A DNA stretch of 64,000 bases, from positions 9,672,001 through 9,736,000 of the forward strand of contig CM059445.1 of assembly GCA_030390025.1 (NCBI GenBank), read 5' to 3'. The translations under genes were made by a program, and so were the position numbers. This stretch comes from Squalus acanthias (lineage: Eukaryota). Below are positions 17,843 through 62,921 of the stretch, piece by piece. The notes beneath the pieces are model-generated. The model was not told the DNA's origin and made no database searches. It worked only from the letters and a program-made list of their open reading frames with translations. The number at the start of each line of letters is the position of its first letter. The first letter of the stretch is position 1.

Positions 17843-18158
17843 TACTACTTATGTTCTTATGAAACAGTTCACATGAGTAAAGCACCAGATGCTGGTCAGT
17901 GGGATTAGATGCCTTTTGTGTAATTGCCCTCTAATGGACTATTACTGGTAGGGAGTGTCTATATTGAGATGCATCAGGCCTCTCCACTATATAGGATAGG
18001 CTCGGTGGATCCGTTAGTCTTTACCTAACCGTTATTTTATAAGCTTGTATGGTGTTTCCAGTAGTGTAGTGCTCCTTAGAGCATGATTACTCTGCTGCCC
18101 TGATGGGAGAAGGGTGGGGGCTCCAGTTTGAAGAATAATGCTCATTTATTTTTTTCAG

Positions 18159-18201
18159 ACTGGCGAGGGCAAAGAGCCTGGGGACAAGAAACCGAAGCGC
18201 T
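18159..18201 (+). CDS. akap8l: AKAP8/AKAP8L-family small exon
   Basis: tttttcag|ACT GGC GAG...AAG CGC T|gtaaga; TGEGKEPGDKKPKR; phase 0-1. Confidence 0.8.
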
Positions 18202-19239
18202 GTAAGATCAGGTTTCATTTAGTAAAATTCCCCCCTCCTACCACCCCCCTCTTCTCCTCCTCTCCCCCCCCCCCCCCCCCCCCCCAAACACAATAGCACA
18301 TCTCTTCTATTGGGCCTTTTCTGTTGATCTGTCTTTTCTTTCAACCCTCCCCAGGGCAGAGTGGCATGCGAGTGTCTTGGGTTGGTTGTTTTTTGTTGGC
18401 TGGCATTCTCACAGCCAACTTTCCTCCACTTGAGACTTTGTCAAACAAGTTAATTAAGATTCAGAACTTGTGACACTTGACCAGCCTACCATATTCTGTG
18501 ATTTTTTTATTTCGTCGTCGTCTTCGGCAGTCCCTCGGAACCGAGGATGACTTGACTTATTCTGTAAATGTTAGTTAGCTCCTGGCAATTTTTGCAACTT
18601 TATTTTTAACCTTTGCTTTGGAACTAAAGATGAAGTTTTGTACAAATTGCTCTTGTTCTAGTTTATGTTCTGAATTCACACAATTGTTTTATTGAAGAAC
18701 TGTTTGTTTAATATTGCTGTATAACATAACTGGGTCAAAATGTGATACAAATAGAATGTCACTATTTACAATGTTACGGTCACTGGAATGGTTTTAATAA
18801 GAGCATGTGTGAGTAATGATGTGTGGCAGAGAGTTACAAGCTGGTAATACATTGGAATAGTTTGATCTCCCAAATGGCATAAAGCAGAGCTCAAGCATCA
18901 GCAAATTGCTTTTATAAAGTGCCTTTAAGGTAGAAAAATGCCCCACAGTGCTTCAGATGCGTAACAAAAAATGAATGTCGAGCCAACAAAGGAGTGAGGG
19001 GTGACCCAAATCTTAGTCAGAGTGAGTCTTGAGGTGGAGGATTTGGGAAAGGAATTTTTAAAGCCTGGGGCCTAAAATGACTGAAGGCACGGCTCCCAAT
19101 GGTAGGACAAAGTGGGGGAGGAGGACAGATGCACAAACAGCTTTTATTAACATCAGCTGAACCTCAAGATTAAGCAAACTGCGTACTTTTTTGTTTTATA
19201 ATAACAGAGTGTGGACCTCTAAGGTAGCAGGGGTGGAAC

Positions 19240-22200: not shown

Positions 22201-22250
22201 GAGCTGGCTCGAGGGGCTGTATGGCCTACTCCTGCTTTCTTATGTTATGA
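19240..22250 (+). mobile_element. CR1 LINE remnant (host), interrupted at 20228-21211
   Basis: RT fragments SPGPDGLHPRVLKE, NYRPVSLTSVVG, DFQKAFDKVPH, FADDTKL; typical CR1 3' tail. Confidence 0.88.
20228..21211 (+). mobile_element. Younger 5'-truncated CR1 nested in the host CR1
   Basis: Uninterrupted 248-aa RT C-terminal ORF; tail ctatgtttctat; 'gaca' at 20224-20227 and 21212-21215; host continues at 21212. Confidence 0.9.
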
Positions 22251-22659
22251 AACATTGATCTGGATTTCTGATTTTAGTCATTGTCCACCGACACTTGCTG
22301 GAGTGAATGTGTTGTGTAATGATCGCTCAGTGGTTGGATAGTTTATTTAGGTTTGTGTGAGAAATGGCCGCTTGGGTGAGATCCTTGAAGGATGCTGTAC
22401 TTGAGCTGGAGTTGGTGCCTTCAGGAGCAGAAAGAATTGACGGGGGAGGAGGGTAACTATGTAATTTAAATAGGGTGATACTTTAGATAATTAGGTAGTA
22501 GATGTTAATAATGTGGGACCTGAAGGTATTTTGGCCTCGTGAACAGTAACATATACTGATTGTGGGAAGGATTAGTCTTAAAGGTAAATACGGAGGAATT
22601 GGATAATTACTACCTAGTGTGTTTGTGTGTGCTGAAATATTGTGCTTTGTTTTAATTAG

Positions 22660-22726
22660 TTCCTACGATGCAAGAGAAGAAGAAGGCGAACAAACCAAAG
22701 AAAAACCGGGACCGTCTTGCAGAAAG
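22660..22726 (+). CDS. akap8l: AKAP8/AKAP8L-family exon preceding zinc finger 1
   Basis: taattag|TT CCT ACG...GAA AG|gtctgt; ...[10 protein letters not shown] matches the RDR(M/A)..R segment before ZF1. Confidence 0.85.
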
Positions 22727-22818
22727 GTCTGTAGTAATGGCAGCGTGAATAGATTTTTCTACTGTTACATTGTTCAACCTGTGCAGTTTCTCTATGTACC
22801 GTGTTCTTTGTGTTGCAG

Positions 22819-22960
22819 GATAATGTATGCCTGCTCCGTTTGTAAGTTCCGAACATTCGAAGATGAGGATATTTCTTCCCATGTGGACAGTCGGTTCCAC
22901 ACAGAAACTTTCAAGTTCATTGCGACCAAACTTGACAAGCAGACTGCTGACTTTTTGCAT
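22819..22960 (+). CDS. akap8l: AKAP95-type C2H2 zinc finger 1 exon
   Basis: gttgcag|G ATA ATG...TTG CAT|gtatgt; [23 protein letters not shown]...KQTADFL. Confidence 0.95.
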
Positions 22961-23211
22961 GTATGTATCTGTGGTTCTTTCATCTTTGGCTTGTTTAAAT
23001 ATGGCTACTTTCACCAATGTATTTTTTCCAAATCCCATTCTTAATTACATTTGTGTATGGATTGGCAATGCATCAGTGCTAATTGAGTATTGGAGACAAT
23101 ACGTATGTCTAAAATAACCATGCAATTGCTCTTTTCTTTAAACCAAGGCTATTGATGGAATAAAAAACACTGTCCCATATGAAATGTGCTTAATGTTTGA
23201 ATCTCTTTCAG

Positions 23212-23317
23212 GAATATATCTTAAACAAGATCCAGAAAACTCAGAAGCGTAGGGAGCAAATTGGAGATAAAACGATTCTGAAAAAGCAGCTGATGCAGCA
23301 GCAAGACTTGCTGCAAG
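23212..23317 (+). CDS. akap8l: AKAP8/AKAP8L-family inter-finger exon
   Basis: ctttcag|GAA TAT ATC...CAA G|gtatgt; EYILNKIQKTQKRREQ...QDLLQ. Confidence 0.92.
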
Positions 23318-24695
23318 GTATGTTGGACCTGGTTTAAATCATCCACTTTATAAATGATGCAGACTTGTTCCTGCAAATGGCCTGCTCAATTCGAATCTTA
23401 GCTGAGATTTGGCTTTTCAAGATTAATGAAAATTTCCCAGCATCACATGATGCTACTTTCATACAGCAAAGCAGTGTTACTTAAACTTGCTGCTTCTTGG
23501 CCTCTGGGTCTCCTTTCACAGAATGGCTGTAATATCTTGTACAATTGCTGCTGTTTTCTGGTGAGGGAAGGGAATACTATTGAGAGGCAGGGCGATCCCA
23601 GTACCCATACAAAGCTCTACAAAAAAATTGCTCCAATATTTTTAACTCCCTCTTTCCCCCCCCCCCCCCCCCCCCCAAACTTCCTCTGGAGAGGTGCTTG
23701 ACCATCGCTTAGCAGCTGTCTATCGGGACATGGCCAAAATCTGCAGCTCCGTGAGGAATAGCGGGTGCAGATTCATACCCCACCAAAACCACTGCTTGGG
23801 ATTGTATCCTTGGGAAATGTTAGAATTGATGGTGGTGGTCGGGAAACAGTGGGCAGTAGATCTGAAGTGCATATGTGTTAATGGCACCGATTATGGCATA
23901 GAAATTATGGTTGGATTACAAACTGCAGTTCGAAGGAGTTTTAAAATTCTTGGATGGAACTTTCACGGCATTAGAACAGGGTTTGAATCAGAATGAACTG
24001 CGATGAGGACCGAGTTCCAGTTTACTCTGCTTGCACATAAATGGGTCTTGACCGTTTTCAGATCAGACTGGAAATACAACTTGAAATCGCAGATAATTAT
24101 TTTTCAAACCATGTATGTAGGGTGGAGTCGTGCAGCAGTGAGGTGTAGATCTATTGTGTACACATTCCTTGTATTCTAATTCTGCAGTTTGGAGTTCATG
24201 GGGGAAAAATGGGGTAATAGAGTAGCTTTTAAGATGGTCAGGATTGGATATCCAACCTATGCAATGGCTTGTATACCATATTGGATAATACTTATTATTG
24301 GTCACCACCTAACACAGGAATCTGGTTAAACTGACTCGGCCAGAGACCTGAATGATCACTAATGGCAGCTCACCTCTCCGTCCAGTGTTGCTGGTGTCCC
24401 CACGATGCTGAAGTCTGTTGTTCTCAGCCGCGTTGCATAACATTTTAGCAAATAACCAATAGGCAGTAATCAAACCCGTGCACCTTCTGATTTTCGCCAT
24501 GCCATTTTACCAACAAATAACACAAAAAGGTTAAAGTTCACATGGATACGCTGTGCGGCTGAGTATTGAGATCACATGCCCAACAACGGTTTCTGTTACT
24601 AATTTTTTAAACATTTACTAATCAAATGTAATTTTCTGCGTGTAGATTCCCAATTGGCTGTATGCAGCTCGTGGCTAATGTGTTCGACAACACGG

Positions 24696-24828
24696 CAACG
24701 TTCCCTCTCTGCTGGTCCTACATAGCCTGGGGCCGGCTTTTTCAATGTTACATTTTGCGTAGGCTTGAAACTGAATGGGCCGCCCCTTAAAGGGGTCGTG
24801 CACCGAAAAAAACTTAGGGGGAACATTG
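24696..24828. mobile_element. hAT-type MITE, copy 1
   Basis: TIR caacgttccc / gggaacattg; imperfect 8-bp TSD caacacgg / caacacta; internal ccccttaaagggg shared with the 41881 copy. Confidence 0.7.
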
Positions 24829-25282
24829 CAACACTATTTCAGGCAATCCCTGTTGTTTATTGCTGAGCAGTGCTGGTCAACACTGTCACTTTAAACAACC
24901 GATTCATCTGCTCCCCTTCGATGTTGCTTTCATTGCTGTTTTGCATTCATTACATCCTGAGTAATCTGAGTGCAGTGCTGCTGTGCATTAACTTATACCA
25001 TAAACTGGTGAACAACCAGCTCACTGGCAATGTCAGAAACTAGAAAACATCAAGGTGGAAAAAATAGTGAGGATACCAACACAACTTAACAGGACCACCA
25101 GTGTAACATTCACAATTGGTGTACATAGGTTTTATTAATTGTAATTAGAATGCCATGATTGCTACAAATCGATCTCACTGTAGTGATTCTGTTCTTTGTC
25201 CCCTGGCCCCCAACAAAATTCCATTTGAATTTGTTCAGCTGTCATTTTTGCTGCATCTGATTCTTTGTAATTGTGTTTGTAG

Positions 25283-25413
25283 ATGTTGGTCTGGAGCATT
25301 TCATGAAGAAGGTGGAGGCAGCACACTGTGTGGCCTGTGATCTGTTTGTACCTTTGCAGAATGCCCTCCTTATGCGACATCTGAAGACGCCTGATCATGG
25401 CAGGAACCGCAAA
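25283..25413 (+). CDS. akap8l: AKAP95-type C2H2 zinc finger 2 exon
   Basis: tttgtag|AT GTT GGT...CGC AAA|gtaagt; EHFMKKVEAAHCVACDLFVP...HLKTPDHGRNRK. Confidence 0.95.
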
Positions 25414-26804
25414 GTAAGTGCTGTGTAGTACGAGAAGCTGTGTAGACTTGCAGATCTGAAGTATAAGCAGTAGTTTATCCAGGTGGCTAACTTACTATTA
25501 TAAACTGCTTAAAAAAAAAACTATCAAATGCTTTCTCTTCGCCCCTCCACCTTTCGTCATGGCTTCCTCACTTAGTAAAGTCAGCAATTAGCTGGTCTGT
25601 ATGGACCAGAGATCCCAGGTTCAATTCCTGGTCTGTGGTGAGTTAGCCAGTTCCAGCTTCAGTGGCAGCAAGGGCACCGATATCAGCCAGTCCAGGGTCC
25701 TCTTTTCTGATGGCTGTCCATTTACCGCCTTCTGTAAAATCATGTAGATCTGTGGAAAAGGTTTTGAGCTTGGTTATGATACTGACGGTCAAATAACCCT
25801 GACAACGGTCACTGCTTAGTACTGGAGAGCATGCGATGGCTGTCGACCTGTAACCCAGTATAAAAGTTGACGTTTTCGAGGATCATTTGGGGCCGAACAG
25901 CCTGTTACTGTGCTGTACGTGCTATGTAGAGGAGAGAAAAACCCCATGGAATACAAATGTGGCACCTCTTCATTCCACCTCCTTGGGCTCAGTGATTAGA
26001 AGCACAGATTAGTGAGACCTGTTAGAAAGAGAATGAATATGGAAAGCAAGACTGGATCAATTTTAGTTGTGACGTCCCCCTTGGGGGAAAATAGAGGCTG
26101 ACCTGTACCGTCTAAACAAAGAATGGCTGCTTAAGACGCATTACAAAAGAGTTCCTGTCCATGTCCTTTCAGTAAAGTGCTGTAAATCAGGGGTTAGCAT
26201 TGTGCGAGAGAGAGAGAGTCACTTTTCGGAGTTGTTTCGAATTAGATCTTTGGTTCTTGGGGTTTGACTTCAATTCTGCTTAATGTTACATATCTGAGGG
26301 ATTTGTCCAGCTCAGAATATAATCACAGTGCTACTACTGTAGAACTGAGGTGCATGGGAAAAACAAATTAGCTTTTGATGCATCTTGCTCCTTGTGAAGT
26401 TTAACTTCCTATTGCTGTTTGATGATGTGCTCAAATACTGTACATGAAACTACTGCTTTGCTGCAAGTACAATTTTTCATGTAGGCTGCATTTAAAGGCT
26501 TCCCTCTGGCTGCACACCATCGCATCAACAAGCCTCTTTCCCTTATGCAGGACAACATTATAAACCCATGTTTTCATGGCTTTAGGATTCTACTGTCCAG
26601 AGAAAATCGTCCCAGTTTCATTTCTGTAAACTTGGGGAGCTGGTACCTTGAGTTTGGTTTCTGCAGGTTTCTGAAAGTGGGCCCCAGTACATGAAAGAGA
26701 GCACTCCAGAGTCCCAAATATAAAAGCAGAAGAATGGCACATGGATGTTGCTCTCCTAAACTGCACTAAGTGCTTCAAAGTCGGGGTGTTTTAAAAAAAA
26801 AATC

Positions 26805-27122
26805 ATTCATGGATGTGGGCGTCGCTGGCAAGCCCAGCATTTATTGCCCATCCCTATACTGAGTGGCTTGCTAGGGCAGTTAAGAGTCGACCACGTTGCT
26901 GTGTCTGGAGTCGCATATAGGCCAGGCCGGGTGAGGATGGCAGATTTCCAACCCTAAAGGACGTGAGTGAACCAGATGGTTTTTTATGAGAATCCGGTAA
27001 TTACATGGTCACCATTATTGATAGATTTTTATTCCAGATTTATTTAAATTCCCCAGCTGCTGTGGCGGGATTTAAACCCATGTCTCTGGATTACTATCCA
27101 GTGACATAACCACTATGCTACC
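26805..27122 (-). mobile_element. tRNA-derived SINE with CR1-derived 3' tail
   Basis: Minus-strand head ggtagcatagtggttatgtcactgga...gggtttaaatccc (A/B-box-like); tail gggatgggcaataaatgctgg shared with the LINE end at 820-870; a partial + copy lies at about 63495-63700. Confidence 0.7.
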
Positions 27123-27437
27123 GTTCCGGGCGTGAGGTCATGGATACTATATGGTACCAGGATAGGGTAGAGAAAGGAGTAGACCTGTGCCTCTTTTTGA
27201 GGCTCTAATTCATAAACGGCCGAACCTAAAATCTGTGAATTAAATAGTTCTGGGTATAGTCTTTATTCTAACTTGACTTACTTCAGGCATAGCGAGTGCA
27301 GAAATTAATCACTCTCTATCTAATCAGCCTGGCTTTCTTTGGAATCTTGCATCTACTATCTACAATTTAAAAAAAAAAAAGAAGAAATTACCAGCTTTAT
27401 TCTTGGATTGTCCTTTACCATCTCTCTTCCTTACCAG

Positions 27438-27533
27438 GCAATGCTAGAGAAAGCCAAGAAGGGCAGCCTTGTTGTCGCTAGGAGTGTCCTGAATAACCGC
27501 AACATTGCAGCAATGCTAGAAAAGTACAAAAAG
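27438..27533 (+). CDS. akap8l: AKAP8/AKAP8L-family penultimate coding exon
   Basis: ttaccag|GCA ATG...AAA AAG|gtaagt; KKGSLVVARSVLNNRNIAAMLEKYKK. Confidence 0.94.
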
Positions 27534-28444
27534 GTAAGTGTGCCGTGTTCAAGTGTAATTAGTTCTATTATTGACAACATGGCTATTGTTTGGCAGCGAA
27601 CCGCAGGGAGAAACTAATAGGCATTGGTTTGCAAACTCTTGCAAAATTGGTTGGTTATTCTGGGTTTGAAGCTTGGGAAGAATCTGGCAGTTTGTATTCC
27701 ATGCTGTTGATCATCGTGCTGTCTGGAAGGCCCTGCTGCCATACAGGGGAGCGCACGCAGTACAAAACCACATGTTCTGACTTGTATTAACCGTGATTTG
27801 GACACTGTTCCAATGGTATCTTAACTAATATGTCAGTGGTCAGTTCAGTCACCTGCTAGGTAGAAATTAAGTGTCTCTAAAGGTAAAAATACAACCAATT
27901 GTTGCCAAAAGAGTCAGTGTTCCTACTGATGGCCATTAGCATTTTGAAGAGTTTCAATGGCAGTCAGTAAAATCTAGATGACTCACTAATAGATTTTTAA
28001 CAGGCAGGTGTATTTAAATTTGTGATTTATTCTGTAACATTTTACCGTGCTCCATCTTGGTTCCAATATATTTTGAGGTTTTTTATCTCAATGCTTTGAA
28101 AGTTCTGTTCCTCGACAGGAGTAGGAATGCTCTGAAGCCTTTGAGTGAATTCTATTCCTCAATCATACGGGTGATTTGTGAGACTAATAATTCCTGGTGT
28201 CTCCAAGGACAATTCAAATATTTTTTTCTGGGGGGGGAATACATTTGATTTCAAATGATGAGGGGGGGCACACTTTTTTGGACTTTAAATTTAGTAATTT
28301 GATATGAAAAAGCATTTCTCATATTGCTGGCCTTAATGGAGCACTTGAATATCTGATCACTTCATCTCTGTTGGCATTAATACTTGAGTCTTTTCTTCCA
28401 GGAATTCTATTAAAACTGGCTAATTGTATACCTTCCTTTTGCAG

Positions 28445-28864
28445 GGCGAGAACCCATTCACTGATGACCCAGACAAAGATGAGGAGGATGCAGGTGATGA
28501 GACTGCTGAGGGCGATGGCTTGAAGGATAGCACCATGGAGGTTGAGAACAAAGGGGAGACTGAAGATGCCGAGAACAATACCATCGACACAGATGGAATA
28601 AAAGTGGTAGATCCCTCTGAAGAAAATGCTGGGAAGGCAGCGGAGGAGGGGGCTGAGGGGGAGGCAGCGGAGGAGGGGGCTGAGGGGGAGGCAGCAGAAG
28701 AAGGGGCGGAGGGGGAGGCAGCAGAGGAGGGGGAGGCAGCAGAGGAAGGAGCTGGGGTGGTGGTTGGGGAGGCAGATACTGCTCTTGCTGCAGAAGACAA
28801 GGAGGTAGAATTGACAGCTGAAGAGGAAGATGAGATGTTGAAGGGAGAGGAACAGTTGGAGTAA
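28445..28864 (+). CDS. akap8l: AKAP8/AKAP8L-family terminal coding exon (acidic tail)
   Basis: tttgcag|GGC GAG AAC CCA TTC (GENPFTD), Glu/Ala/Gly-rich tail, TAA at 28862-28864. Confidence 0.93.
   Translation, partial: GENPFTDDPDKDEEDAGDETAEGDGLKDSTMEVENKGETEDAENNTIDTDGIKVVDPSEENAGKAAEEGAEGEAAEEGAEGEAAEEGAEGEAAEEGEAAEEGAGVVVGEADTALAAEDKEVELTAEEEDEMLKGEEQLE
28634..28753 (+). repeat. Coding 27-bp tandem repeat (EAAEEGAEG x ~4.5)
   Basis: gaggcagcggaggagggggctgagggg units repeated in frame, one unit shortened to 18 bp. Confidence 0.9.
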
Positions 28865-35854: not shown

Positions 35855-36450
35855 CACAATCCTGCGCCCAACAAACTGGCGCTGCCCCCCCCCAATCCTG
35901 CGCCCCACAAACTGGCGCTGCCCCCCCACAATCCTGCACCCCACAAACTGGCGCTGCCCCCCATCCTGCACCCCACAAACTGGCGCTGCCCCCCCCACAA
36001 TCCTGCACCCCACAAACTGGCGCTGCCCCCCATCCTGCACCCCACAAACTGACGCTGCCCCCCCACAATCTGGTGCTGCCCCCCATCCTGCGCCCCACAA
36101 ACTGGCGCTGCCCCCCCCCAATCATGCGCCCCACAAACTGGCGCTGTTGTCTCCTGCGCCCCACAAACTGGCGCTGCCCCCCCCACAATCCTGCACCCCA
36201 CAAACTGGTGCTGCCCCCCCATCCTGCGCCCCACAAACTGGCGCCGCCTTCCCCAATCCTGCGCCCCACAAACTGGCGCTGTTGTCCCCCGCCCCAATCC
36301 TGCGCCCCACAAACTGGCGCTGTTGTCCCCAATCCTGCGCCCCACAAACTGGCACTGTTGTCCCCCTCCCCAATCCTGCGCCCCACAAACTGGCGCTGCT
36401 CCCCCACAATCCTGCGCCCCACAAACTGGCACCGCCTCCCACAATCCTGT
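35855..36450. repeat. GC-rich minisatellite, about 30-41-bp units, about 17 copies
   Basis: Repeated aatcctgcgccccacaaactggcgctg followed by variable C-runs. Confidence 0.95.
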
Positions 36451-41231: not shown

Positions 41232-41376
41232 CTATTTCACCGGCTCGGCAGATACGGAGATCTCTTCGCGGGCAGCCTCCGCCTTTGGGAAGTTCATGTC
41301 CAGGATGTGTCGCTGCAGGTGCCTCACCCATTCCTCCTGAATCGAGAGGGGACCGTGGAACTCCACATCGCAAAAT
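41232..41376 (-). CDS. wiz: WIZ terminal coding exon (C-terminal zinc finger)
   Basis: cctgggcag|A TTT TGC GAT...; FCDVEFHGPLSIQEEWVRHLQRHILDMNFPKAE...*, nearly identical to the recalled WIZ C-terminus. Confidence 0.95.
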
Positions 41377-41880
41377 CTGCCCAGGAAGGAAGGAAGGAAG
41401 GAAGCATCAGGAGCAGCTAAACCAATTAACTCAATTCTTTGTTTGAAAAAAAAAAGCCACCTTCCCCAGTTCTCTCCCGCCCCGCCACCCCGTTACCTCA
41501 TTCAAGAGGATAAGGGGCACATCACCAGTGTGTTGGGTTTGGGCAGGACAGGTGGGGGAAAGCCAAGCCAGGTAGTGAAGCTTCAATAAGGGGGGGACGG
41601 TGTCGCCCGCCACCCACGAGCCCAAGTTTCAGTCAAAGCGAGGGTGTGCGTGCAATCCTCCATTAGAAAGTTGGGGCTCGTTCGCGAGCGCACGGACATT
41701 CTGGAGCGGAATGCGGAGAGGGGGCTGCGATCGCTGATCGACTGGGAGAGTCAGAGGGGCCAGGAAGGAGTTGAACGGAGGGGCTGAGGTAGCACAAACC
41801 CCAACAGTCAAGCACAAGCCCTTTTTTAAAATCTCTCCCCCCCCCCCCGAAGATGCACACTCCACCCAGCGTGTTACACC

Positions 41881-43370: not shown

Positions 43371-44899
43371 CTGAACACGAAAGAGAAGCCGTTAGCTCGT
43401 AGTCCCGTTCGACGCGCAAGAGTCAGATCCGTTTCAACCGTATAAACCCTCGGGAAGACGTTTTCGAAAAGTTACTTCGGATCTAGTCACATTTTACTGA
43501 AAACCTGCCAGTACAGTTAAACCCTCCAAAGATCACATTGCTCGATAAAAACTCCTATTTTACTTGAATGGTAAAGCACTGCTCAAGATCGCATAGAAAT
43601 ATATTGCCTGAACGTAGTGACACTTGAAATAAGTCACGGCCTGGCCTAATCAAGGAACTGCTCATTGCTAAATATCAATTCCAACATCCGTGGGGCAAAT
43701 GAAAGCACACAAAACAGTTTAAGAGTCAGTGGGCACTTTTGTTCCAGGTGGATATGTTTTAAACAGACAGTGGTGTTCCGACCACACGTGAATGTAAACT
43801 TATATTCCAATCGATCGGTGCAGGAACATCATCAGGTTACTGCACTTCTCAAGAGTTTTAAGATATGCTGAATGGCTGCTTCCATTACCAAATTTTGGGA
43901 GAAAACGAGTCTGATTTTTTGGAACAGTGGCCCCAGTCAGGGCACAATAATCCTTCTGGTCCATGCATGCGGCCATTTAGAGGGTTTAACTGCACTTACC
44001 GGACAGGAAGGAGGACTATTCCACTTGGCCATGAATCGAGTGGGTATAAAAGAAATGTCATTTATCAGTTATAATCCCACAACGTGTCTTTTCCCATTGA
44101 GCGCCACACGTATTTTGTTTATTACTCGGTTATGCTCTAAACAGGGAAGAGAATCGGTGCAATTCATTTCCTCTACTTCTTTCCCAACTGTTAACCAGCC
44201 TTTCACTCAATTGGTTGAACTCAAAGTTATGCTTGCGAGGTGAATATTATGCAGGGTTTTTCTAAGTCGCCAAACCGCATGCAAACGGGGCTTGATCACA
44301 TCTTATACTGGTATAGGCTTACTTGCACATTAACAATGAATTATATACCCTGGCGCGGTGTTTCTAGACAGGGGAAAGAGTGCGAGAACAAAAAGGCACA
44401 ATAAATACAATCCACTCACGTGCAAATTAAAACAAAGACTTATATACATAAGCAAGCAAAAGCTGCAACTAGTCCCTGAGCTTCTAGGGTTAGGCTTTGC
44501 GTCCTCAAGCACGTCACAACCTGGACGCTCAACTTCATTCGGGGAGGGAGGGGGGGGGGGGGGGGGGGGAAGGATTAACTTTGTGCCTGGATCACAGCAT
44601 GTATAATCACACAGTTTCCTTTACAGTGCATTTCAATTTAACAAGCTCTCTCTTCAGCACTGTCAAACTTTACATTCAGGTTTCTTTTCCTGTTTTTTTT
44701 GGTTACGTTATACAAAGCCAAAGGGTCTCACATGTGTCGGTGAGTGCAGGTTCAGCCTTTTCGTGGAGTTCCTCAAACTGAGACAGACTCGGTAACTTCC
44801 TTTTCAGTCCCGATTTCAGATGGCCACGCATGTGGTTGGAGAGGCCTACACCCGTGGTTAGTGTCACTCCACAATACTCACAGGTTCCTAACTTGACTG

Positions 44900-45165
44900 G
44901 GTGCTCTGTTGTCCAAAATGAAATTAAGATTCAGTTACCACCCTGCCTTTCCACAGTTCGATTCCTACTTTCAATTGAGGTTCTGGCAGGTCTCAACCTA
45001 GTTCCCAGTGGACGCGAGTCCACACAAGCACAAATAGAGGCCCTCAAATTTAGGACTGACTGCCTGCAAGCTTCTTTAGAGGGGCACTGCGGGAAAGCAG
45101 AAATAGAGAGGTCACCGTGTACCATTAGGGGCAGCTCTTGGAGGCCAAGCATTGGAAGAGATGGT
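44900..45165 (+). mobile_element. Possible LF-SINE-related ancient SINE fragment
   Basis: ggtctcaacctagttcccagtggacgcgagtccaca plus upstream gttacca and downstream gaggccaag resemble the recalled LF-SINE core; not verified by alignment. Confidence 0.4.
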
Positions 45166-45783
45166 AGGCAGCTGGAGGATGGGACAGAGAGCTAGGGTAG
45201 TGCCCTGTCTTGACTAGGGAATTCTCAAAATGACTGCAAAGCAGAAAGATGCTCCACTTTCAAATCACTTCTCTCTCTCACAAACACACACAGTCACTCC
45301 TCATCCACGCACCAAGCCAGGTATTTGGAGGAAGGGGATAAAGTTGCAAAGTAAAGGAAGCCCCAGAGTCCACTCTCGGTGATTTAATCCTACGACCGCC
45401 ATTTACCACTGTACAATTATTTCCTTTCAATCTGTCAACGTTCTTCAGTGAATTTCCTTTCAAGATGCTGTGCTGGATAAAATCTGGACGCAAACTTTCT
45501 TTCGTTTTAAATTAGAATTTCATGCATTTTGATTGAGTCCTCATGTTGATGTTTGAGACACTAACAGATTCCTGTGAGCAATGTAGACTCAAACCAATGG
45601 AAATGCTGGATCCTCTAAGAAACGGTGTGCAGTTGAAAGACATGAATGTGACAGGTGAAAGGAGCACAAAGCTCATTAACCGACACCACTATTATGACCG
45701 CGCTCGAGGGCCACGGACATTTATTTACACCTGCAGTACAGCAAACAAATCAGTTCCACATCAACCGATCACAATACAGCTCC

Positions 45784-46770
45784 TGCCCCTGAATTGCCCA
45801 TTAGTGTAGCCCCTCCCCTAGAATTGTCCATTACATTGTAGCCCCTCCCCTAGAATTGTCCATTAGTGTAGCCCCTCCCCTAGAATTGTCCATTAGTGTA
45901 GCCCCTCCCCTAGAATTGCTCATTAGTGTAGCCCCTCCCCTAGAATTGCTCATTAGTGTAGCCCCTCCCCTAGAATTGCTCATTAGTGTAGCCCCTCCCC
46001 TAGAATTGTCCATTAGTGTAGCCCCTCCCCTAGAATTGTCCATTACATTGTAGCCCCTCCCCTAGAATTGCCCATTAGTGTAGCCCCTCCCCTAGAATTG
46101 TCCATTACATTGTAGCCCCTCCCCTAGAATTTTCCATTAGTGTAGCCCCTCCCCTAGAATTGTCCATTAGTGTAGCCCCTCCCCTAGAATTGTCCATTAC
46201 ATTGTAGCCCCTCCCCTAGAATTGTCCATTAGTGTAGCCCCTCCCCTAGAATTGTCCATTAGTGTAGCCCCTCCCCTAGAATTGCCCATTACATTGTAGC
46301 CCCTCCCCTAGAATTGTCCATTACATTGTAGCCCCTCCCCTAGAATTGTCCATTAGTGTAGCCCCTCCCATAGAATTGTCCATTAGTGTAGCCCCTCCCC
46401 TAGAATTGTCCATTAGTGTAGCCCCTCCCCTAGAATTGCTCATTAGTGTAGCCCCCCCCTAGAATTGCCCATTAGTGTAGCCCCTCCCCTAGAATTGCCC
46501 ATTAGTGTAGCCCCTCCCCTAGAATTGTCCATTAGTGTAGCCCCTCCCCTAGAATTGCTCATTACAGTGTAGCCCCTCCCCTAGAATTGCCCATTACAGT
46601 GTAGCCCCTCCCCTAGAATTGCCCATTACAGTGTAGCCCCTCCCCTAGAATTGCCCATTAGTGTAGTCCCTCCCCTAGAATTGCTCATTACAGTGTAGCC
46701 CCTCCCCTAGAATTGCCCATTACAGTGTAGCCCCTCCCCTAGAATTGCCCATTACAGTGCAGCCCCTGTC
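45784..46770. repeat. 30-32-bp minisatellite, about 31 copies
   Basis: tagtgtagcccctcccctagaattgtccat with variants (gtc/gct/gcc; tagt/tacatt/tacagt). Confidence 0.97.
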
Positions 46771-47709: not shown

Positions 47710-48260
47710 TAGACTTAGGGGAGAACTGATTGAGGTTTATAAGATAATGCAGGGAATAGATTGTGTTCCAGCTGGCAGTTTATTTCAATTAAACAGGTTA
47801 GGCAGGACCAGGGGTCACAAATTTAAGTTGTATAAGGCCAGATCTAGGTTAGATGTCAGGAGGTGGTTCTTTTCCCAGAGAATAGTGGACGTCTGGGACA
47901 GGCTGCCGACTCGTGTGGTGGACGCGGACTCGCTGAATTCCTTCAAGCGAGAGCTGGATTTGTTTCTGGCTGGGGCGGAGATTACCTCTTACAGAAGGTA
48001 GGTCCTGCAGGGAATTCAGGGCCAGAGTGATCTCCTGGACTAGTTTCCATCGCCTAGATGGGTCGGAGAGGAATTATCCAGGTTTTGTTTTTCTCAAATT
48101 GGCCTGGTTTTTTTTCGCCTCTCCCAGGAGATCACATGGTTTCGGGTGGGGTGGTGTGTATATGTTGTGATACACAAGGTATTGCAATTGTGTGGGACAG
48201 GCTCGATGGACCAGAGGGTCTTTACCTGCCAGTCATTGTTTGCATGTTCTCATCAGATCA
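47710..48260 (+). mobile_element. CR1 3' remnant (distinct subfamily)
   Basis: RRLRGELIEVYKIMQG...TRGHKFKL...FFSQRIVDVW. Confidence 0.8.
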
Positions 48261-48320
48261 ACTGCAGTGACGGGAAGCCCAGGAGCAGGATTCTCAACCT
48301 TCCCAGCCAGGTTTGGTGCA

Positions 48321-48614
48321 TGATGTGGAGATGCCGGCGTTGGACTGGGGTGGACAAAAATGAGAAGTCGCACAACACCAGGTTATAGTCCAACAGATTT
48401 ATTTAAAATTACAAGCTTTCGGAGCTGTCGCCCCTTCCTCAGGTAGAGTTACTGAGACACAATCTGATAATTGAATCGCATTTTCTCTGTTTATATTCTG
48501 TGAATTCTGGTAGACTGTCTCACAGTAACTCTACCTGAGGAAGGGGCGACAGCTCCGAAAGCTTGTAATTTTAAATAAATCTGTTGGACTATAACCTGGT
48601 GTTGTGCGACTTCT
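48321..48614. mobile_element. Penelope-like non-autonomous element with inverted pseudo-LTRs carrying hammerhead cores
   Basis: Perfect 94-bp inverted repeat 48361-48454 / 48523-48616; 13-bp direct repeat caggtttggtgca at 48308-48320 and 48615-48627. Confidence 0.8.
48532..48567 (+). ncRNA. Minimal hammerhead ribozyme motif (mirror copy on - strand at 48410-48445)
   Basis: Stem I TAC/GTA; CTGAGGA core; stem II GGGGC-gaca-GCTCC; GAAA; palindromic AGCT stem III; NUH site CTT. Confidence 0.6.
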
Positions 48615-49115
48615 CAGGTTTGGTGCAGGGAGGGAAAAGAAACCTTAAACAAACCACACTATTGAAATAAGAGTGCAGAGAGGTGCTCACATGCATGCTA
48701 TTGGTCAGCATGGCTGCTTATCCGACAGCTGTAAGGAGCGCTCGAAGATACCGGACCAGTGAATAGTGACAAAAGCAGAACAGGAGGAAAGGAGGAAAGT
48801 CTTAAAATGGAGCATGCAAAATAAGAGATTAGTGTCCGAAAGCAAAGAGAAGGATGGCCAAAGGGTTGGTACAGAAAGTAACCACTGCACAACTGCTACA
48901 TCAAAGCAACTAATCCTGATTGGGGCAATAGCACTCTAAGCCAGTGCAGCAGGAACTAGGAGTAACCATTTCCCAAATATAACGGGACCTTGGGGAAAAG
49001 CATTAAACTGAATAGGAAAGTCTCGACTAATATTTGCCCCACTAATCAAGTTAATTTGAGCCAATTTACAAAGCCACTGGAGACAGCAAAAAAAATGCTA
49101 AATGTCTGCGTTACT

Positions 49116-49984
49116 TAGAAAAATAGGAGCAGGAGTAGGCCCTTCGAGCCTGCTCCGCCATTCAATATGGTCATGGCTGATCCTCTATCTCAATACTATA
49201 TTCCCGCTCTCTCCCCATACCCCTTGACGCCTTTTGTGTCCAGAAATCTATTATCTCCTTCTTAAATATATTCAGTGACTTGGCCTCCACAGCCTTCTGT
49301 GGTAGAGAATTCCACAGGTTCACCACCCTCTGAGTGAAGAAATTTCTCCTCATCTCAGTCCTAAATGTCCTACCCCGTATCCTGAGGCTGTGACCCCTCG
49401 CTCTAGACCCCCCAGCCAGGGGAAACATCCTCCTTGCATCCAGTCTGTCTAGCCCTGTCAGAATTTTATACGATTCAATGAGATCCCCTCTCATTCTTCT
49501 AAACTCTAGTGAATACAGACCTAGTCGACTCAATCTCTCCTCATACGACAGTCCTGCCATCCCAGGAATCAGTCTGGTGAACCTTCGCTGTACTCCCTCT
49601 ATGGCAAGTATATCCTTTCTTAGGTAAGGAGACCAAAACTGCACACAGTACTCCAGGTGTGGTCTCACCAAGGCCCTGTATAACTGTAGGAAGACATCCT
49701 TGCTCCTGTACTCAAATCCTCTTGCAATGAAGGCCAACATACCATTTGCCTTCCTAACTGCTTGCTGCACCTGCATGTTTGCTTTCAGTGACTGGTGTAC
49801 AAGGACACCCAGGTCCCTCTATACATCAACATTTCCCAATCTATCACCATTTAAATAATACTCTGCCTTGCTGTTTGTCCTACCGAAGTGGATAACTTCA
49901 CATTTATCCACGTTATACTGCATCTGCCATGTATTTGCCCACTCACTCAACTTGTCTAAATTGCCCTGAAGCCTCTTTGCATCA
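49116..49984 (-). mobile_element. 5'-truncated CR1
   Basis: 201-aa RT C-terminal ORF 49171..49776; CR1 tail at about 49116-49200. Confidence 0.9.
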
Positions 49985-50097
49985 ACAAATCTTTAACAAT
50001 TGTTACAGGCAGTCTAAAAGTTGCAGTATCTAGGCTATGATCTACCTTGAGTAGACAGAAGCAAACTCCTCTGTTGTATAATATCACGAATCTTCCT

Positions 50098-50898
50098 GTT
50101 ATCCACTTTGGTGGCAGAAACAGGAAGGCAGATTATTATCTGAACGGCAATAGATTGGGAGAAGGGGAAGTGCAACGAGACCTGGGTGCCCTTGTGCACC
50201 AGTCGCTGAAGGTAAGCATGCAGGTGCAGCAGGCGGTTAAGAAGGCAAATGGTATGTTGGCCTTCATAGCGAGAGGATTCAAGTACAGGAGCAAGGATGT
50301 CTTGCTGCAGTTGTACAGGGCCTTGGTGAGACCACACCTTGAGTATTGTGTGCAGTTTTGGTCACCTTATCTGAGGAAGGATGTTCTTGCCATGGAGGGA
50401 GTGCAGCGAAGATTCACCAGACTGATACCTGGGATGGCAGGAATGACGTATGAAGAGAGATTGGGTCGATTGGGCTTGTATTCGCTGGAGTTTAGAAGAA
50501 TGAGAGGGGATCTCATTGAAACTTATAAAATTCTAACAGGACTAGACAGACTAGATGCAGGAAGGCTGGTCCCGATGGCGGGGGAGTCCAGAACCAGGGG
50601 GTCACAGTCTAAGGATAAGGGGTAAGCCATTTCGGACTGAGATGAGGAGGAATTTCTTCACCCAGAGAGTGGTGAACCTGTGGAATTCTCTACCACAAAA
50701 GGCAGTTGAGGCCAATTCATTAAATATATTCAAGAAGGAGTTAGATATATTTCTTAAGGCTAAAGGGACCAAGGGATATGGGGAGAAAGCAGGGACAGGG
50801 TACTGAATTTGGATGATCAGCCATGATCTCATTAAATGGCGGAGCAGGCTCGAGGGGCCGAATGGCCTACTCCTGCTCCTATCTTCTATGTTTCTATG
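50098..50898 (+). mobile_element. 5'-truncated young CR1 (same subfamily as 20228-21211)
   Basis: Closely similar to 20409-21211 by eye; RT C-terminal ORF and ctatgtttctatg tail. Confidence 0.9.
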
Positions 50899-58148: not shown

Positions 58149-60804
58149 TTGGTAAACTGAAAACACATTTTTACTATTGCAATACTAATATTACAGATGT
58201 CACAAATACTGGCAATACTTGAACACTGAGAAATCCTAAAATTTGAAACAACATATAGAAGGGCGCTGTTGCGTGTTTTAGGCAATTACAACAATGCTTG
58301 GTAAAGTCGGTCAATACATTTTAATCAAGACAATGTGGCAGAATACGATTTCCTTTTAACATCAACCCTTTCTCTGAGGGGTTGACGGTCGTAGTTTCTA
58401 CCTAACTGTAGTCCTCGCACTCTAGGCGATATCTGGCCTCGCTCTGCTGCTGATCTGTTTATTACCGACCTGAATCATCCCCCAGTTTACGAGAGAGTTT
58501 GGTCATTGTACGTTAATTCTTCTCCATTTGGCCATTATCCAGTGGAGGTGCAGAACATTCATTGGTGAAGCATCTCAAGGAAAATTAACTTTAAACTGAT
58601 GACTGTATATGTAATTACATTGCAAAGTGCTTGGGCTTGAAATGTGCACTTAAAACCAGGGGAAACATGAATGGCAGTAATCTCATTGCAGGATTCAGAT
58701 GATAAAATCCAATAATGAAACTGGAATGGCCATCTGAACCCAGAGCAGAGATTGCAGCCATTCAATCACTCCTGTCTATTTCCAATTTTAGTATTTTTTG
58801 GTGGGGTGGGGTATCTGGGTGGCTCAGAGAGGGGAGGGGTGGAGTGGTTAATTAATGAGTTTTCGGTGACGTTTTGATGTCACTGAGTGTCACAGTGCAC
58901 GTGTATGCTTTAAGTTCAATCACCACAAGCAGTGCTGTGCAGGGAGAACAGGCCACAGACAAAGCTGTGGATTATTACACAAGCAGAAAAATTTCAGACA
59001 TCAAAAGCTGTAGAGGCTTGCTGGGCGAGACGGACTCGAAGCAATTGGGTGCTGCAGCTATCTATTTAGATATTTAGGATCAATTAGCAGTTTAGGGCCC
59101 TGGTGTAAAGGTAGCTGTTTGCACCTTTCTCCTGAACTAGTTTTTCCTACAGTAGGTTAACACATGGTGCTTTTCAACTACAACTGCTCTCTGTGTACAA
59201 GTCTTCATTGAGAAGGTGGGGAAAGGGGGAAGGAGGAGGATGAAGAGAAAGTGCTCCCACTTCTGATTGCTATTCAGTGACCCCGCACACGTGGCCGCCA
59301 CGAGCATAGAATCAGGGCAGCTCCCACAGTCAAATAGTCTGCCGACACACACTATTCAAGTCCAAAAAGTACTGGAAGACTGCTCATGGCCAGGAATCAC
59401 ACCCCAGCCTGAGTCATTACCACGAAGGGATAACACGGGAGGGGAGGGGGAAAAAAAAAATCAAACACCAAGCGAGACAAAACTTCACCTTGGAGGATTC
59501 AGAGTTTTGGAGTATTAGTGCAGTACAGCAACATGATTACCGTACAAAAAACTACATGACCCAGATGAATGCACAAAAAGTTGCATAACAGCACAGGTAA
59601 ATTAGGAGCACCACAAAAGAGGGGCTATTGCAAAAATCATAAAAGAAAACTTTACTTTAAAAAAAATAATTTCAAAAGAATATGGGGAAAGGACCAGGGA
59701 ACGCGACTAAGTGTAAAGCTCTAAGACAGCCAGCAAAAGCAGGACGGGCCAAATGGCCTCCTTCTGTGCTATAAGATTCTATGATTTACTAACAGGTGGT
59801 GAAAAATCAATACTCTCATCCCTCCCTCCCTCTGTCCTAGGAGAAAGGAAATAGAGCAATGGTGGAAAAAAGTAGCAAAATGTGGAGAAACTGAAATGGT
59901 TTGCAAGTCCTGGTTCAATAAAAATGGCCCACGGTTCAGTTTAATGAGCAGAGTCACACTGCACTTAAAGATGCCTGTGTAACTAATCGGAAACTCTGAG
60001 TGACAAAGAAAAACGCAAAACAAAATTCAATGCGATGTACCGACGTGCATCATGGGATGTTATTATGCAATGAAGGGCTCTTGTTAAAAAAAAGACGTTA
60101 AATGGGGGGAGGCAAATATCAAAACAAGGACCGATCAAACTGGAAATCCCCTCGAATCTGCTGCCAGCAGGAGTGTATTAATCCATTCTCTTAGGAATTT
60201 ATAATTACTGACAACACTGCGTAAAAGTTAGTGCTATAGGTGAGCGTACTGGCCCGCCGAGGATTTATAATGTGGGGAGAGATTCGTATTGCTTTAAAAG
60301 GACATGACTGACTGACACCAATGGCTGACAATTAGAGGGTAATCTTTCAACCTGTACTTCCTCCGCTCCATCCAACATTGAGACGTCATTCAGCTGCAAT
60401 GATGGATTAAATAAGGACTGCTACAGAGTTGGGTGCTGCCACGTTGGTCGTGATAGGAGGTTAACTACTTGCCATGCTAAGCCCTGGCCCTTCTGCACCC
60501 AAACCACTGGGATCTGTTTTTCTTTTTTAAAAAGAGGAGCAAAAAGACCTTTCATTTTTCTTTTAAATATAAAGTTGAAGTCCTTACTTTTGCTAGAAGC
60601 CTATGTACAGTGGGGCTCCACAGGAACTGGCTCTTAAAGTGGTAGGTCAAATCTGAACAGTTGGGTCTGTCCTGATCTGCAGTTCCAACCTACGCCTTTA
60701 AGATGAGAACTCTGCACAGAAACAAGTGACCAATTTTTCTCTTTGTTTAAAAATTTTCTTTTTTTCTTTTTAAATATTTGCTCAAATACCGAATACAAAC
60801 TTAC

Positions 60805-61293
60805 TTCTCTTTTTCTTTGGATGTGGCTCATCGTCTTCAGATGGCATAGAGGAGCTTGGGGTGCACTCAGTTATGCTGCCATGGCTCAGATCTGTGGGAA
60901 TGTAGCACTCGGTCGGAGGCATTTTTTCTGTCTCTGGATTCTTCTGCACCGGTGAGGCTGGAAACCCCAGCTCTACTGTTTTGGGCTGCATTGGCTCCAA
61001 CTTCACCGTCTTACCCCCTGGCAGTGAACACAGCTCCCCCGGCAACTCCTTAACCACAGATTTGATGTGGTTTCTGATGGGCTTTGGAAGAGGGCGGTCC
61101 TGCACACAGTTCAGAGGCGCGCCCGGGCTAATGTTGGGCTTCTGGCGGATCCACTCCCTCAGGGTGTCTATCGGCGAGCCGTTGATGTGCCATTCAGTCA
61201 CCCCGAACTGTCTGAGATGGGCTCTGGCATGGCTGGCTAAAGCTTTCCGGTTTTCAAAGTAGTGGCCGCACAATTCGCAGCAAGTGTCTGCGG
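60805..61293 (-). CDS. wiz: WIZ zinc-finger exon
   Basis: ccctgcag|CC GCA GAC...AGA A|gtaagt; CELCGHYFENRKALASHARAHLRQFGVTEWHINGSPIDTLREWI; phase-1 end joins the 43370 acceptor in frame. Confidence 0.93.
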
Positions 61294-62921
61294 CTGCAGG
61301 GGAAGAGACCAGGACACAAATCAATGTGTTAATGTGACTCTGGCTGTTGAGTGCTGCAGCCAGCTATTCAAGTCAAATGAATGTTCAACAGTCCTGATTG
61401 CAAAGACTGTGGTTTGCTCGGTGTTTGCTGAGCAAAACATTTTATAGCACAGAAGGCGGCCAGTCGGGCCATCGAGCCTGTGCCAGCACATAAATAGTTT
61501 AAGCCACTTAGTCCCATTCTTTTCCATATCTTCACAAATTTTTCTTTTTCAAATATTTATCCACTTTCCGTTTAAAAGCGATTATGGATTCTGCTTACCC
61601 CACTGTTTCTGGGAGGGCATGCTACCTCCTAACAACCCTCTATGTATATAAAAAAAATTCTAATCTCTTCTCTTTTGGTGATAAACTTCTGCCCTCTAGT
61701 TCACAACTTGTATAGCAGTAGTAATAGCCTTTCCCCATTTAACTTATCGAAACCTCGCCATTTTGAACACCGCTATTGGATCTCTTGTCACCCTTCTCTA
61801 TTTCAACGGAAAAAAGTCCCAGGAGATAATGCAGATTCCAGTGCTAGAATCTGCAGAGAGGGGCGTTATAGATTTCAGTTTGGGCTCTGCCATAGGCCCA
61901 GTGATGTAAAGGAAGTGGCCGGTGTCATGCCAAACAGGAATGGTCTCTAAATTGAGTTACTTGATCTTAGCCAGGGGAGCGGGGGGGAGCAGGACAAGTG
62001 ACCTGAGCCCCCGGGCTAGGATGTAGGGAGAAACAAAAAGAAAACCAACTAAGATTCCCGCTCCTGATCTCTACACAGTATCATTATACAGTGACCTGTA
62101 CTGGAAAGTATGTATGCGAGGACCTTGTGTAAGGTCATGGTTGGGTTCAGTTGCGATGCCCTCCATGGTTAAATCTGTAGATACCCTGTGTCTAGGGTTC
62201 CCCATGTGAAGAATGCGCACAGAGCACTGCTCCCACCCTTAGAGCTGCACCCAGCAAGAGTTAGTGCCTTAAGGAGACAAGGAGAGAAACTGGAAAAAAA
62301 CAGGTAAAACAAGGAGTGTTCTTTTCACAACTGTAATTATTTAAAGATTTTATTCCACATCATTACGAGTGACAGTTCTCCGTTATTTCTTCTGCTTGCT
62401 TTGAATCCTCATCGGTACCATTACAAAATATGGAATGGTGAAGAATTTCACAAGATTACACACACAAGATGTCTGTAGTTTCAACGCCCCACCCACCCCT
62501 AATAGGGAAGGGCAGTTGCGCCATTATAATCAGAAAAGACTGGGCGATGTTCAACGGGATGGAAATGCTCCCTCAGCAGATCTGATTTGAGTTGTTTCCC
62601 CTCCTGTACATTCCTAATGTTAAGAATGAAGCCGACCCATAATACAGAGACTCAAAATAAAACTCAAAACTTCTCCCAGAGTACAAAGGTAATCAAGTCG
62701 AAGCTCCAGGTTAGCAATGCAACACCCAGAATCGAACAGATTTAGAACCCGTTAGGGGCCAATCATTTCAAATAGAAGAAAGGGAATATTACTTTGGGAA
62801 TAGAGCAGTCATCTCACCAATAGGGCCTCGCTTAAAAATGCAAGTTCAAACCAAAGTCTATCGTGTGCAGTTATTTGTCTTATTGCTAATGAGCTAGGTC
62901 CAGAAAACTTCACCTTGTTAG

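What the first reader, a model, noticed from the sequence alone, without database searches (positions are those of the whole stretch)
48308..48627. Self-antisense hammerhead cassette: perfect 94-bp inverted repeat with a ribozyme core on each strand, inside the WIZ intron
Seen: a 294-bp insertion with 13-bp direct flanks (caggtttggtgca) whose arms 48361-48454 and 48523-48616 are exact reverse complements. Each arm reads TAC-CTGAGGA-A-GGGGC gaca GCTCC-GAAA-GCT-T-GTA, giving stem I, the CUGANGA core, stem II, GAAA and a palindromic AGCU stem III. Known: Penelope-like elements carry minimal type I hammerheads with palindromic stem III, proposed to act as dimers, and often have inverted pseudo-LTRs. 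Inference: a transcript from either strand, including the WIZ pre-mRNA, holds one ribozyme plus its perfect antisense copy, so it could fold either as a self-cleaving motif or as a long dsRNA hairpin (ADAR/Dicer substrate). Perfect arm identity suggests recent insertion or homogenisation.
Basis: partly seen in the sequence, partly recalled or inferred. Interest (0 to 1): 0.75.

Follow-up and report, generated by a model that had tools for sequence, protein, structure and literature searches.

The report
Stub of a Penelope-like jumping gene
This hairpin-shaped insert in a WIZ intron is two broken-off ends of a very common Penelope-like jumping gene joined head to head, a layout already described for this class, and its ribozyme motifs are predicted to be locked in double-stranded RNA rather than acting as a switch.

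Summary
It is best read as two 5'-truncated ends of a very high-copy Penelope-like element (PLE), joined head to head. Contigs of 4 of 4 runs laid show the same family ending at the tail end, and one run also lists a pile at the tail-less end. Inverted pLTR, one-sided tail, short TSD and opposite-strand hammerhead pairs are all in print for PLEs. The scan has also found such stubs before, in other genomes. The 'ribozyme or hairpin' switch is not supported: on either strand the antisense arm is made first, the ribozyme fold costs 76 kcal/mol, and no second sense copy is present for the dimer. One useful detail: each arm holds sequence the other lacks, and their inner 11 nt match two different family variants, which fits two separate priming events. 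The empty site, the link to an RT/GIY-YIG ORF, cleavage and editing were not shown. Ordinary; interest low.

The parts
48308..48320 (.). Left copy of the target-site duplication (13 bp; 9-bp core 48310-48318 if both terminal CA pairs belong to the element)
   Evidence: empty site not observed
48321..48360 (-). 40-bp PLE 'tail', present at this end only
   Evidence: loose ends with mixed flanks pile at 48319-48320 in 4 of 4 runs, and depth steps up 1.3-2.2 fold past 48361 in 4 of 4 runs
48361..48465 (-). Left 5'-truncated pLTR end (perfect arm 48361-48454, plus 11 nt that match a second family variant)
   Evidence: table 7 (X9 loose end behind 48465, 1 contig) and table 2
48410..48445 (-). Minimal type I hammerhead motif on the WIZ-sense strand; predicted cut between 48413 and 48412
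   Evidence: motif parse; no Rfam match; cleavage untested
48466..48474 (.). Head-to-head junction (approximate); only a 4-bp hairpin, not a palindrome
   Evidence: read from the sequence; depth trough in X1, X5 and X9 (table 2)
48475..48522 (+). Further upstream pLTR sequence, present on the right copy only
   Evidence: multi-copy depth at 48482-48511; strand-switch joint 48454/48522 in X5 (2 contigs) and X9 (1 contig)
48523..48616 (+). Right 5'-truncated pLTR end without tail (perfect arm)
   Evidence: its outer end mirrors 48361, where X7 lists 54 contigs ending with mixed flanks
48532..48567 (+). Minimal type I hammerhead motif: 3-bp stem I, CUGAGGA core, extra A, 5-bp stem II with 4-nt loop, GAAA, loopless AGCU stem III, U17; predicted cut after 48564
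   Evidence: family variation tables 3 and 7
48615..48627 (.). Right copy of the target-site duplication (first 2 bp shared with the arm)
60785..61363 (-). Host context: WIZ-like zinc-finger reading frame upstream of the insert (stop-to-stop span, not exon borders)
   Evidence: zf-C2H2_4 E 0.006, below cut-off
41235..41459 (-). Host context: WIZ C-terminal zinc finger downstream of the insert (reading-frame span)
   Evidence: zf-WIZ PF23015, 67.3 bits, cut-off 27

Best explanation
It is a dead, stub-sized insertion of a very abundant Penelope-like retrotransposon. Shown: two 5'-truncated copies of the element's hammerhead-bearing end lie head to head with their 3' ends facing out; the left has the 40-bp tail and the right lacks it; a 9-13 bp duplication flanks them; both outer ends coincide with places where many other copies of the family end. 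Inferred (about 55% for this step): the PLE protein nicked both strands 9-13 bp apart, each nick primed its own reverse transcription, one from the tail-inclusive start and one from the tail-less start, both stopped early (about 145 and 140-150 nt), and the two cDNA ends were joined in the middle. Inferred: the hammerheads are passengers from the donor's pLTR. In WIZ pre-mRNA the arms zip into a 94-bp duplex, so the motifs should not cleave; the hairpin may be an incidental ADAR substrate, as inverted repeats in introns generally are (established knowledge, not tested).
For: Sequence anatomy. High copy number: 12,483, 10,243, 2,107 and 2,109 contigs laid in X1, X7, X5 and X9. Two termini: loose ends before 48319/48320 in 4 of 4 runs (114; 88 + 60; 16 + 13; 24 contigs, agreement 0.36-0.43, so mixed flanks) and before 48361 in X7 (54 contigs); depth rises past 48361 in 4 of 4 runs. 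Depth in X1 falls from 7.3 million at 48372-81 to 8,314 at 48452-61, as expected for 5' truncation. Orientation of the centre: joint 48454/48522 on opposite strands in X5 and X9. Literature: inverted pLTR, 31-bp optional tail and 8-10 bp TSDs (PMC3846280); inverted 5'-truncated copy and a 30-40 bp tail at one end (PMC8557442); opposite-strand minimal hammerhead pairs and inactive monomers (PMC4209133); a PLE protein that cuts and extends both strands from two RT starts that bound the tail (PMC11167929). Folding.
Against: No RT/GIY-YIG ORF was tied to this family here: no genome is held, a protein search with the frame through the tail found 0 hits among 3 candidates, and four pattern scans of prokaryotic, viral and metagenome collections found 0 matches. 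The empty site was not seen: the unique left flank had zero depth in 4 of 4 runs, so none is shown to be this locus or even this species. The 48361 terminus is listed as a loose-end pile in 1 of 4 runs among the 24 of 325 rows shown. The second upstream variant rests on one X9 contig plus a depth pattern in X7. The depth decline could partly reflect subfamily divergence rather than truncation. Identity over 94 bp is only moderately expected from two unrelated family members (roughly 12% from X1 allele shares, assuming independence), so the two templates must be close kin or were homogenised later.
Confidence: 0.82

Rival explanations
1. Same element, but the inversion arose by self-priming (fold-back) of one nucleic-acid strand, as proposed for head-to-head PLE junctions on an antisense template.
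For: PMC3846280 proposes self-priming on antisense templates for head-to-head pLTRs; perfect arm identity is what copy-back gives; a 4-bp hairpin sits at the junction.
Against: Each arm holds sequence the other lacks (tail on the left, about 50 nt upstream on the right), so neither is a simple copy-back of the other. The inner 11 nt differ, and both versions occur in other family copies (tables 5, 7). The junction is not the long palindrome that motivated the model.
Confidence: 0.25
2. The whole 300-bp unit is a non-autonomous, MITE-like or retrozyme-like family that moves as one piece.
For: Small size, near-terminal inverted repeats, flanking duplication. PLE proteins can mobilise sequence between pLTRs in trans (PMC3846280).
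Against: Depth at the junction (48462-71) is 68 in X1 against 51,360 at 48492-501 and millions on the arm; none of the 32 contig pieces listed (of 27,191) bridges it. The repeat is asymmetric. Non-LTR retrozymes are head-to-tail tandems with same-strand ribozymes (bioRxiv 2026.07.22.740005). X7 has 2,500-3,900 depth in the junction bins, which I read as two separate variants ending there, but this is not resolved.
Confidence: 0.08
3. A host-exapted RNA switch or small-RNA precursor that regulates WIZ by toggling between self-cleavage and dsRNA.
For: Intact core on the WIZ-sense strand; perfect 94-bp duplex.
Against: Ribozyme fold excluded by 76 kcal/mol, and the antisense arm is made first; no dimer partner in cis; perfect identity points to youth, not conservation; the same intron holds a longer imperfect inverted pair of LINE-like fragments; miRNA-precursor matches reflect hairpin shape only (MIR821 121.7 bits against a cut-off of 249).
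Confidence: 0.03

Closest known systems
Complex insertions of canonical EN+ Penelope-like elements with inverted pLTR and tail (Arkhipova et al. 2013, PMC3846280; Craig et al. 2021, PMC8557442)
   Same: Head-to-head inverted 5'-truncated copy, 3' ends outward, 30-40 bp tail at one end only, TSD of about 8-10 bp.
   Different: No ORF body and no direct pLTR remain, only two ends of about 145 nt; the junction is not a long palindrome; the inner 11 nt of the two arms differ.
Minimal hammerheads (min-HHR) of metazoan PLEs (Cervera and de la Pena 2014, PMC4209133)
   Same: Type I layout, CUGANGA and GAAA core, unpaired base before stem II, G10.1-C11.1 pair, loopless palindromic stem III; pairs on opposite strands 100-700 bp apart were noted there.
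   Different: Stem I is 3 bp and stem II 5 bp (4-5 and 7-8 bp in their Schistosoma families); the cleavage base here is U17, while a C17 variant is present at 4-16% of depth in the four runs.
Poseidon element of Anolis carolinensis, PAc (Frangieh et al. 2024, PMC11167929)
   Same: Two discrete 3' termini bounding a tail; both-strand cleavage and extension would give this two-ended structure.
   Different: [quoted passage not shown]
Non-LTR retrozymes of animals (Li et al., bioRxiv 10.64898/2026.07.22.740005)
   Same: Short, non-coding, type I hammerhead, pLTR-derived.
   Different: Retrozymes are head-to-tail tandems with ribozymes on one strand; this is a head-to-head pair with one ribozyme per strand.

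Membership tests
Penelope-like element insertion | Terminal repeat belongs to an element with a telomerase-like RT and GIY-YIG endonuclease ORF | tested here: inconclusive
   No genome held; tail-frame protein search 0 hits of 3 candidates; pattern scans empty. An earlier scan note (e1-7857333) reports an intact hammerhead-bearing PLE in this genome; whether it is the same family was not checked.
Penelope-like element insertion | Hammerhead motif in the pLTR | tested here: met
   Motif parse; no Rfam model matched.
Penelope-like element insertion | Optional 30-40 bp tail at one 3' end (two discrete termini) | tested here: met
   40 bp at the left end only; termini at 48319-48320 in 4 of 4 runs and at 48361 in X7, depth step in 4 of 4.
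Penelope-like element insertion | 5' truncation with an adjacent inverted copy, head to head | tested here: met
   joint 48454/48522 in 2 of 4 runs and depth profile.
Penelope-like element insertion | Short target-site duplication | tested here: met
   9-13 bp direct flanks; empty allele not observed.
Self-primed PLE inversion (PMC3846280 model) | Palindrome at the inverted junction | tested here: not met
   46-68 nt asymmetric centre with only a 4-bp hairpin.
Minimal type I hammerhead (min-HHR) | Core bases, extra base before stem II, G10.1-C11.1, palindromic 15.2-16.2 | tested here: met
Minimal type I hammerhead (min-HHR) | Covariation in stems with a fixed core across copies | tested here: inconclusive
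   4 of 14 listed variant rows fall in the motif (stem I 3' base, base 17, loop II, and U16.1 at 4% in one run); none in CUGANGA or GAAA. The partner of the stem I change appears as loose ends in 4 of 4 runs, and two X9 variants (6 contigs each) keep stem II with A-U for G-U and 3- or 5-nt loops. The changes are not phased on single molecules, and copies share descent.
Minimal type I hammerhead (min-HHR) | Self-cleavage as a dimer | not testable with these tools
   Needs an in vitro assay; folding predicts no access in the full insert.
Non-LTR retrozyme | Head-to-tail tandem with two or more same-strand hammerheads | tested here: not met
   One motif per strand; no tandem array here.
MITE-like non-autonomous unit | Terminal inverted repeats at both ends and the whole unit repeated in many copies | tested here: not met
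   40-bp overhang at one end; junction depth trough in 3 of 4 runs and no listed bridging contig; X7 unresolved.
miRNA precursor | Rfam family match at the curated score | tested here: not met
   Best 121.7 bits against 249 (MIR821), driven by hairpin shape.

The most novel reading that the evidence does not exclude
Stubs like this record the PLE integration reaction in vivo: both strand nicks are primed separately, from the two RT start sites, on two different pLTR templates, and the cDNAs are joined in the middle. Because the two arms here carry different family variants at their inner ends, a genome-wide allele comparison of left and right arms would decide between two-template priming and self-priming, an open question in PLE biology. 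I did not find this model stated in the papers returned by searches (open-access library only).
Probability: 0.35. Interest if true: 0.45.

Novelty: new member of a known kind. Interest (0 to 1): 0.15.

Why it matters
As a single locus it matters little: it is one of very many PLE ends, in a layout described in 2013-2021. Its value is as a data point. The origin of PLE inverted repeats is called undefined in PMC8557442, and short stubs with both ends, a TSD and distinguishable arms can test the models. If such stubs are common in introns, they also form a class of perfect dsRNA hairpins in a lineage with PLEs, comparable to inverted Alu pairs in primates (recalled analogy, not tested).

Tried and rejected
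Rfam at gathering score over the window: 0 matches. Rfam at E up to 10 over 551 bp: 13 matches, none a ribozyme, all below cut-off. Self-comparison: no other copy of the element in the window. Host genome not held, so copy number, empty site and ORF linkage could not be taken from the assembly. Exact-pattern scans: metagenome contigs 0 and 0, viral contigs 0, prokaryotic genomes 0; expected for a vertebrate repeat. Protein search with the 28-codon frame through the tail plus 12 flank codons: 0 hits of 3 candidates, weak evidence. Empty-site test: the unique left flank 48232-48301 had no cover in 4 of 4 runs; a hole proves nothing. Only 4 of the 24 runs listed were laid; the small shares of the other 20 are not used. 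All were contigs, so strand, RNA ends and editing cannot be read, and X5 is only guessed to be RNA. A-to-G differences occur in DNA runs too and are not taken as editing. Lone-arm folding is not more stable than shuffles (z -0.55 to +0.37 for the three arm stretches); a cofold of two sense cores did not return the AGCU dimer as its minimum. The sigma-70 scan is irrelevant to a vertebrate. Supplement search of PMC4209133 for shark names and the motif: 0 hits in 2 files, file 1 unreadable. Full-text motif search: 0 papers. Lunse et al. 2017 is not held. Search of earlier findings by sequence: nothing.

Full report
Observation. The stretches 48361-48454 and 48523-48616 are perfect reverse complements of 94 bp with a 68-bp centre, and the 13-mer CAGGTTTGGTGCA flanks a 294-bp insert. 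Allowing mismatches, the arms run to 111 nt at 95%. This is the longest exact inverted repeat in the window; the next is 38 bp. The hammerhead core pattern occurs twice in the window, both times here. The host gene is WIZ-like on the - strand: zf-WIZ matches at 41235-41459 (E 6.9e-19), and weak C2H2 hits lie at 44706-44930 and 60785-61363. The insert therefore sits in an intron-like gap, though exon borders were not mapped. The organism was not identified with tools. From recall the repeats look like those of cartilaginous fish, and earlier scan notes on this genome call it shark-like (unchecked).

The insert is lopsided: 40 bp (48321-48360) lie outside the left arm only. Both arms read in ribozyme sense from the centre outwards, so this is a head-to-head pair with the 3' ends facing out. 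The terminal CA pairs can be given to the element or to the flank, so TSDs of 9, 11 or 13 bp give the same empty site.

Other copies. No genome is held, so I listed public runs (24) and laid contigs of 4 of them on the left flank, tail, left arm and centre. The element end is a very large family: 12,483, 10,243, 2,107 and 2,109 contigs were laid. Contigs leave the sequence with mixed flanks (agreement 0.36-0.43) at 48319-48320 in 4 of 4 runs. X7 also lists 54 contigs leaving at 48361, and depth rises 1.3-2.2 fold past that point in 4 of 4 runs. So the family has two preferred ends, with and without the 40-bp tail, and this insert uses one on each side. Only 24 of 325 loose-end rows and 32 of 27,191 contig pieces were shown, and the tool warns that depth is not copy number. 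In X5 (2 contigs) and X9 (1 contig) the arm continues into 48522 on the opposite strand, so the right part of the centre is the genuine upstream sequence of the right arm. One X9 contig instead continues through 48465, matching the left arm's own inner 11 nt, and X7's depth pattern fits that variant. Depth drops at 48462-48481 in X1, X5 and X9 (68 and 257 in X1, against 51,360 at 48492-501), which places a rare junction there; X7 shows 2,500-3,900 in these bins and is unresolved. The unique left flank had no cover in any of the 4 runs, so the empty site was not seen and the runs are not shown to be this species.

The ribozyme motif. Each arm has a 3-bp stem I, the CUGAGGA core, one extra A, a 5-bp stem II, GAAA, a loopless AGCU stem III and U at the cleavage base. 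This fits the minimal hammerheads of PMC4209133 (read: parts 1-2 of 4; one of three supplementary files could not be searched). No Rfam model matches. Family variation is of the expected kind but is not phased. Of 14 listed variant rows, 4 fall in the motif: the stem I 3' base (13-64% of depth), base 17 (U to C, 4-16%), loop II, and the core base U16.1 (4% in one run). None falls in CUGANGA or GAAA. The pairing partner of the stem I change shows up as loose ends in 4 of 4 runs. Two X9 variants keep stem II with a different loop length. From recall, U17 cleaves more slowly than C17.

Can it cleave here? Probably not. The full insert folds into one hairpin at -221.5 kcal/mol (z -22.9). On either strand the antisense arm is transcribed first, and forcing stems I and II costs 76 kcal/mol. 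On the WIZ strand, stem II probability is under 1e-17 at 6 of 6 nascent lengths, against 0.95-0.98 at 4 of 4 lengths for a lone arm, where stem I is itself weak (0.04-0.11). These are equilibrium estimates, not kinetics. In print, a single minimal hammerhead showed no cleavage and dimers little (PMC4209133); the Anolis PLE ribozyme cut only with protein and was dispensable for insertion in vitro (PMC11167929, parts 1-2 of 4); 1 of 9 Xenopus dimers cleaved (bioRxiv 2026.07.22.740005, parts 1-3 of 5; supplements closed). A review's passages repeat the dimer requirement (PMC6765202); Lunse et al. 2017 could not be read. A pre-mRNA carries one sense copy only. The realistic RNA consequence is a 94-bp duplex that ADAR might edit (inference, untested). 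The same intron already holds a longer imperfect inverted pair of LINE-like fragments at 49.2-50.7 kb.

Comparison with what is known. PMC3846280 (12 passages) gives the typical PLE layout as an adjacent inverted pLTR, an optional 31-bp tail on one of the inverted pLTRs, and TSDs of 8, 9 and 10 bp. PMC8557442 (10 passages) says the same, with a 30-40 bp tail often at one end only. A curation guide lists both traits (PMC8969392, 8 passages). PMC4209133 reports dual minimal hammerheads about 100-700 bp apart on opposite strands. Five structural PLE features are met here; the link to an RT/GIY-YIG ORF is not shown. Retrozyme, MITE and miRNA readings fail their tests. The scan has noted such stubs before in two other genomes (e1-7858806, e1-7789271) and PLE hammerheads in this genome (e1-7857333, e1-7790369); these notes were read after my first reading was filed, and they are not independent evidence.

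How it formed. PMC3846280 proposes self-priming on an antisense template, from palindromes at inverted junctions. This copy fits that poorly: the junction has only a 4-bp hairpin, each arm has sequence the other lacks, and the inner 11 nt match two different family variants. PMC11167929 shows a PLE protein cutting and extending both strands, with two RT starts that bound the tail and a predicted dimer. The simplest reading is that each of two staggered nicks primed its own short cDNA, one from each start, and the two were joined in the middle. This is inference from one locus (about 55%). Against it, two unrelated family members would share all listed alleles over the arm only about 12% of the time (rough), so the templates must be close kin or the arms were later homogenised. 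I did not find this model stated in searches, which cover an open-access library only; older PLE reviews outside it may hold it.

Verdict. Real, correctly seen, and ordinary: a new copy of a known kind of PLE insertion. Interest 0.15. The boldest reading not excluded is that such stubs can settle how PLE inverted ends are made (probability 0.35, interest 0.45).

Noticed in passing
window 48315-48321 and table 7: The consensus of loose ends before 48319 ends in TAGT or TGGT in 4 of 4 runs, so some family copies probably run a few bases past the tail end, through an ATG on the element's sense strand. A 28-codon open frame leads into that ATG. The target flank here ends in a similar 6-7 bases, which may be primer-template microhomology.
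   Followed up: partly
window 49171-49818 (-) and 50041-50625 (+): Two LINE-like 3' fragments in inverted orientation in the same WIZ intron, with exact inverted pieces of 22-33 bp; a second, longer dsRNA candidate. The CR1/L2-type label is recalled; Pfam gave no hit for the first.
   Followed up: no
window 45778-46767: 30-bp minisatellite, about 32 copies at 93% match, in the same WIZ intron.
   Followed up: no
window 35857-36449: 35-36 bp C-rich minisatellite, about 16 copies, downstream of the last WIZ-like exon.
   Followed up: no
window 10070-28864 (+): Exon-like frames of an AKAP8/AKAP8L-like gene (weak AKAP95 hit, E 0.0034), convergent with WIZ; the two are neighbours in mammals too (recalled). 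A 27-bp coding repeat at 28631-28733 encodes an acidic tract.
   Followed up: partly
window 48452-48522, table 2: X1 and X7 carry the same organism code but differ sharply in which upstream pLTR variant is abundant (48512-22: 17,856-27,710 in X1, 0 in X7). This may be filtering, partial reading of X7 (55%) or real subfamily differences.
   Followed up: no
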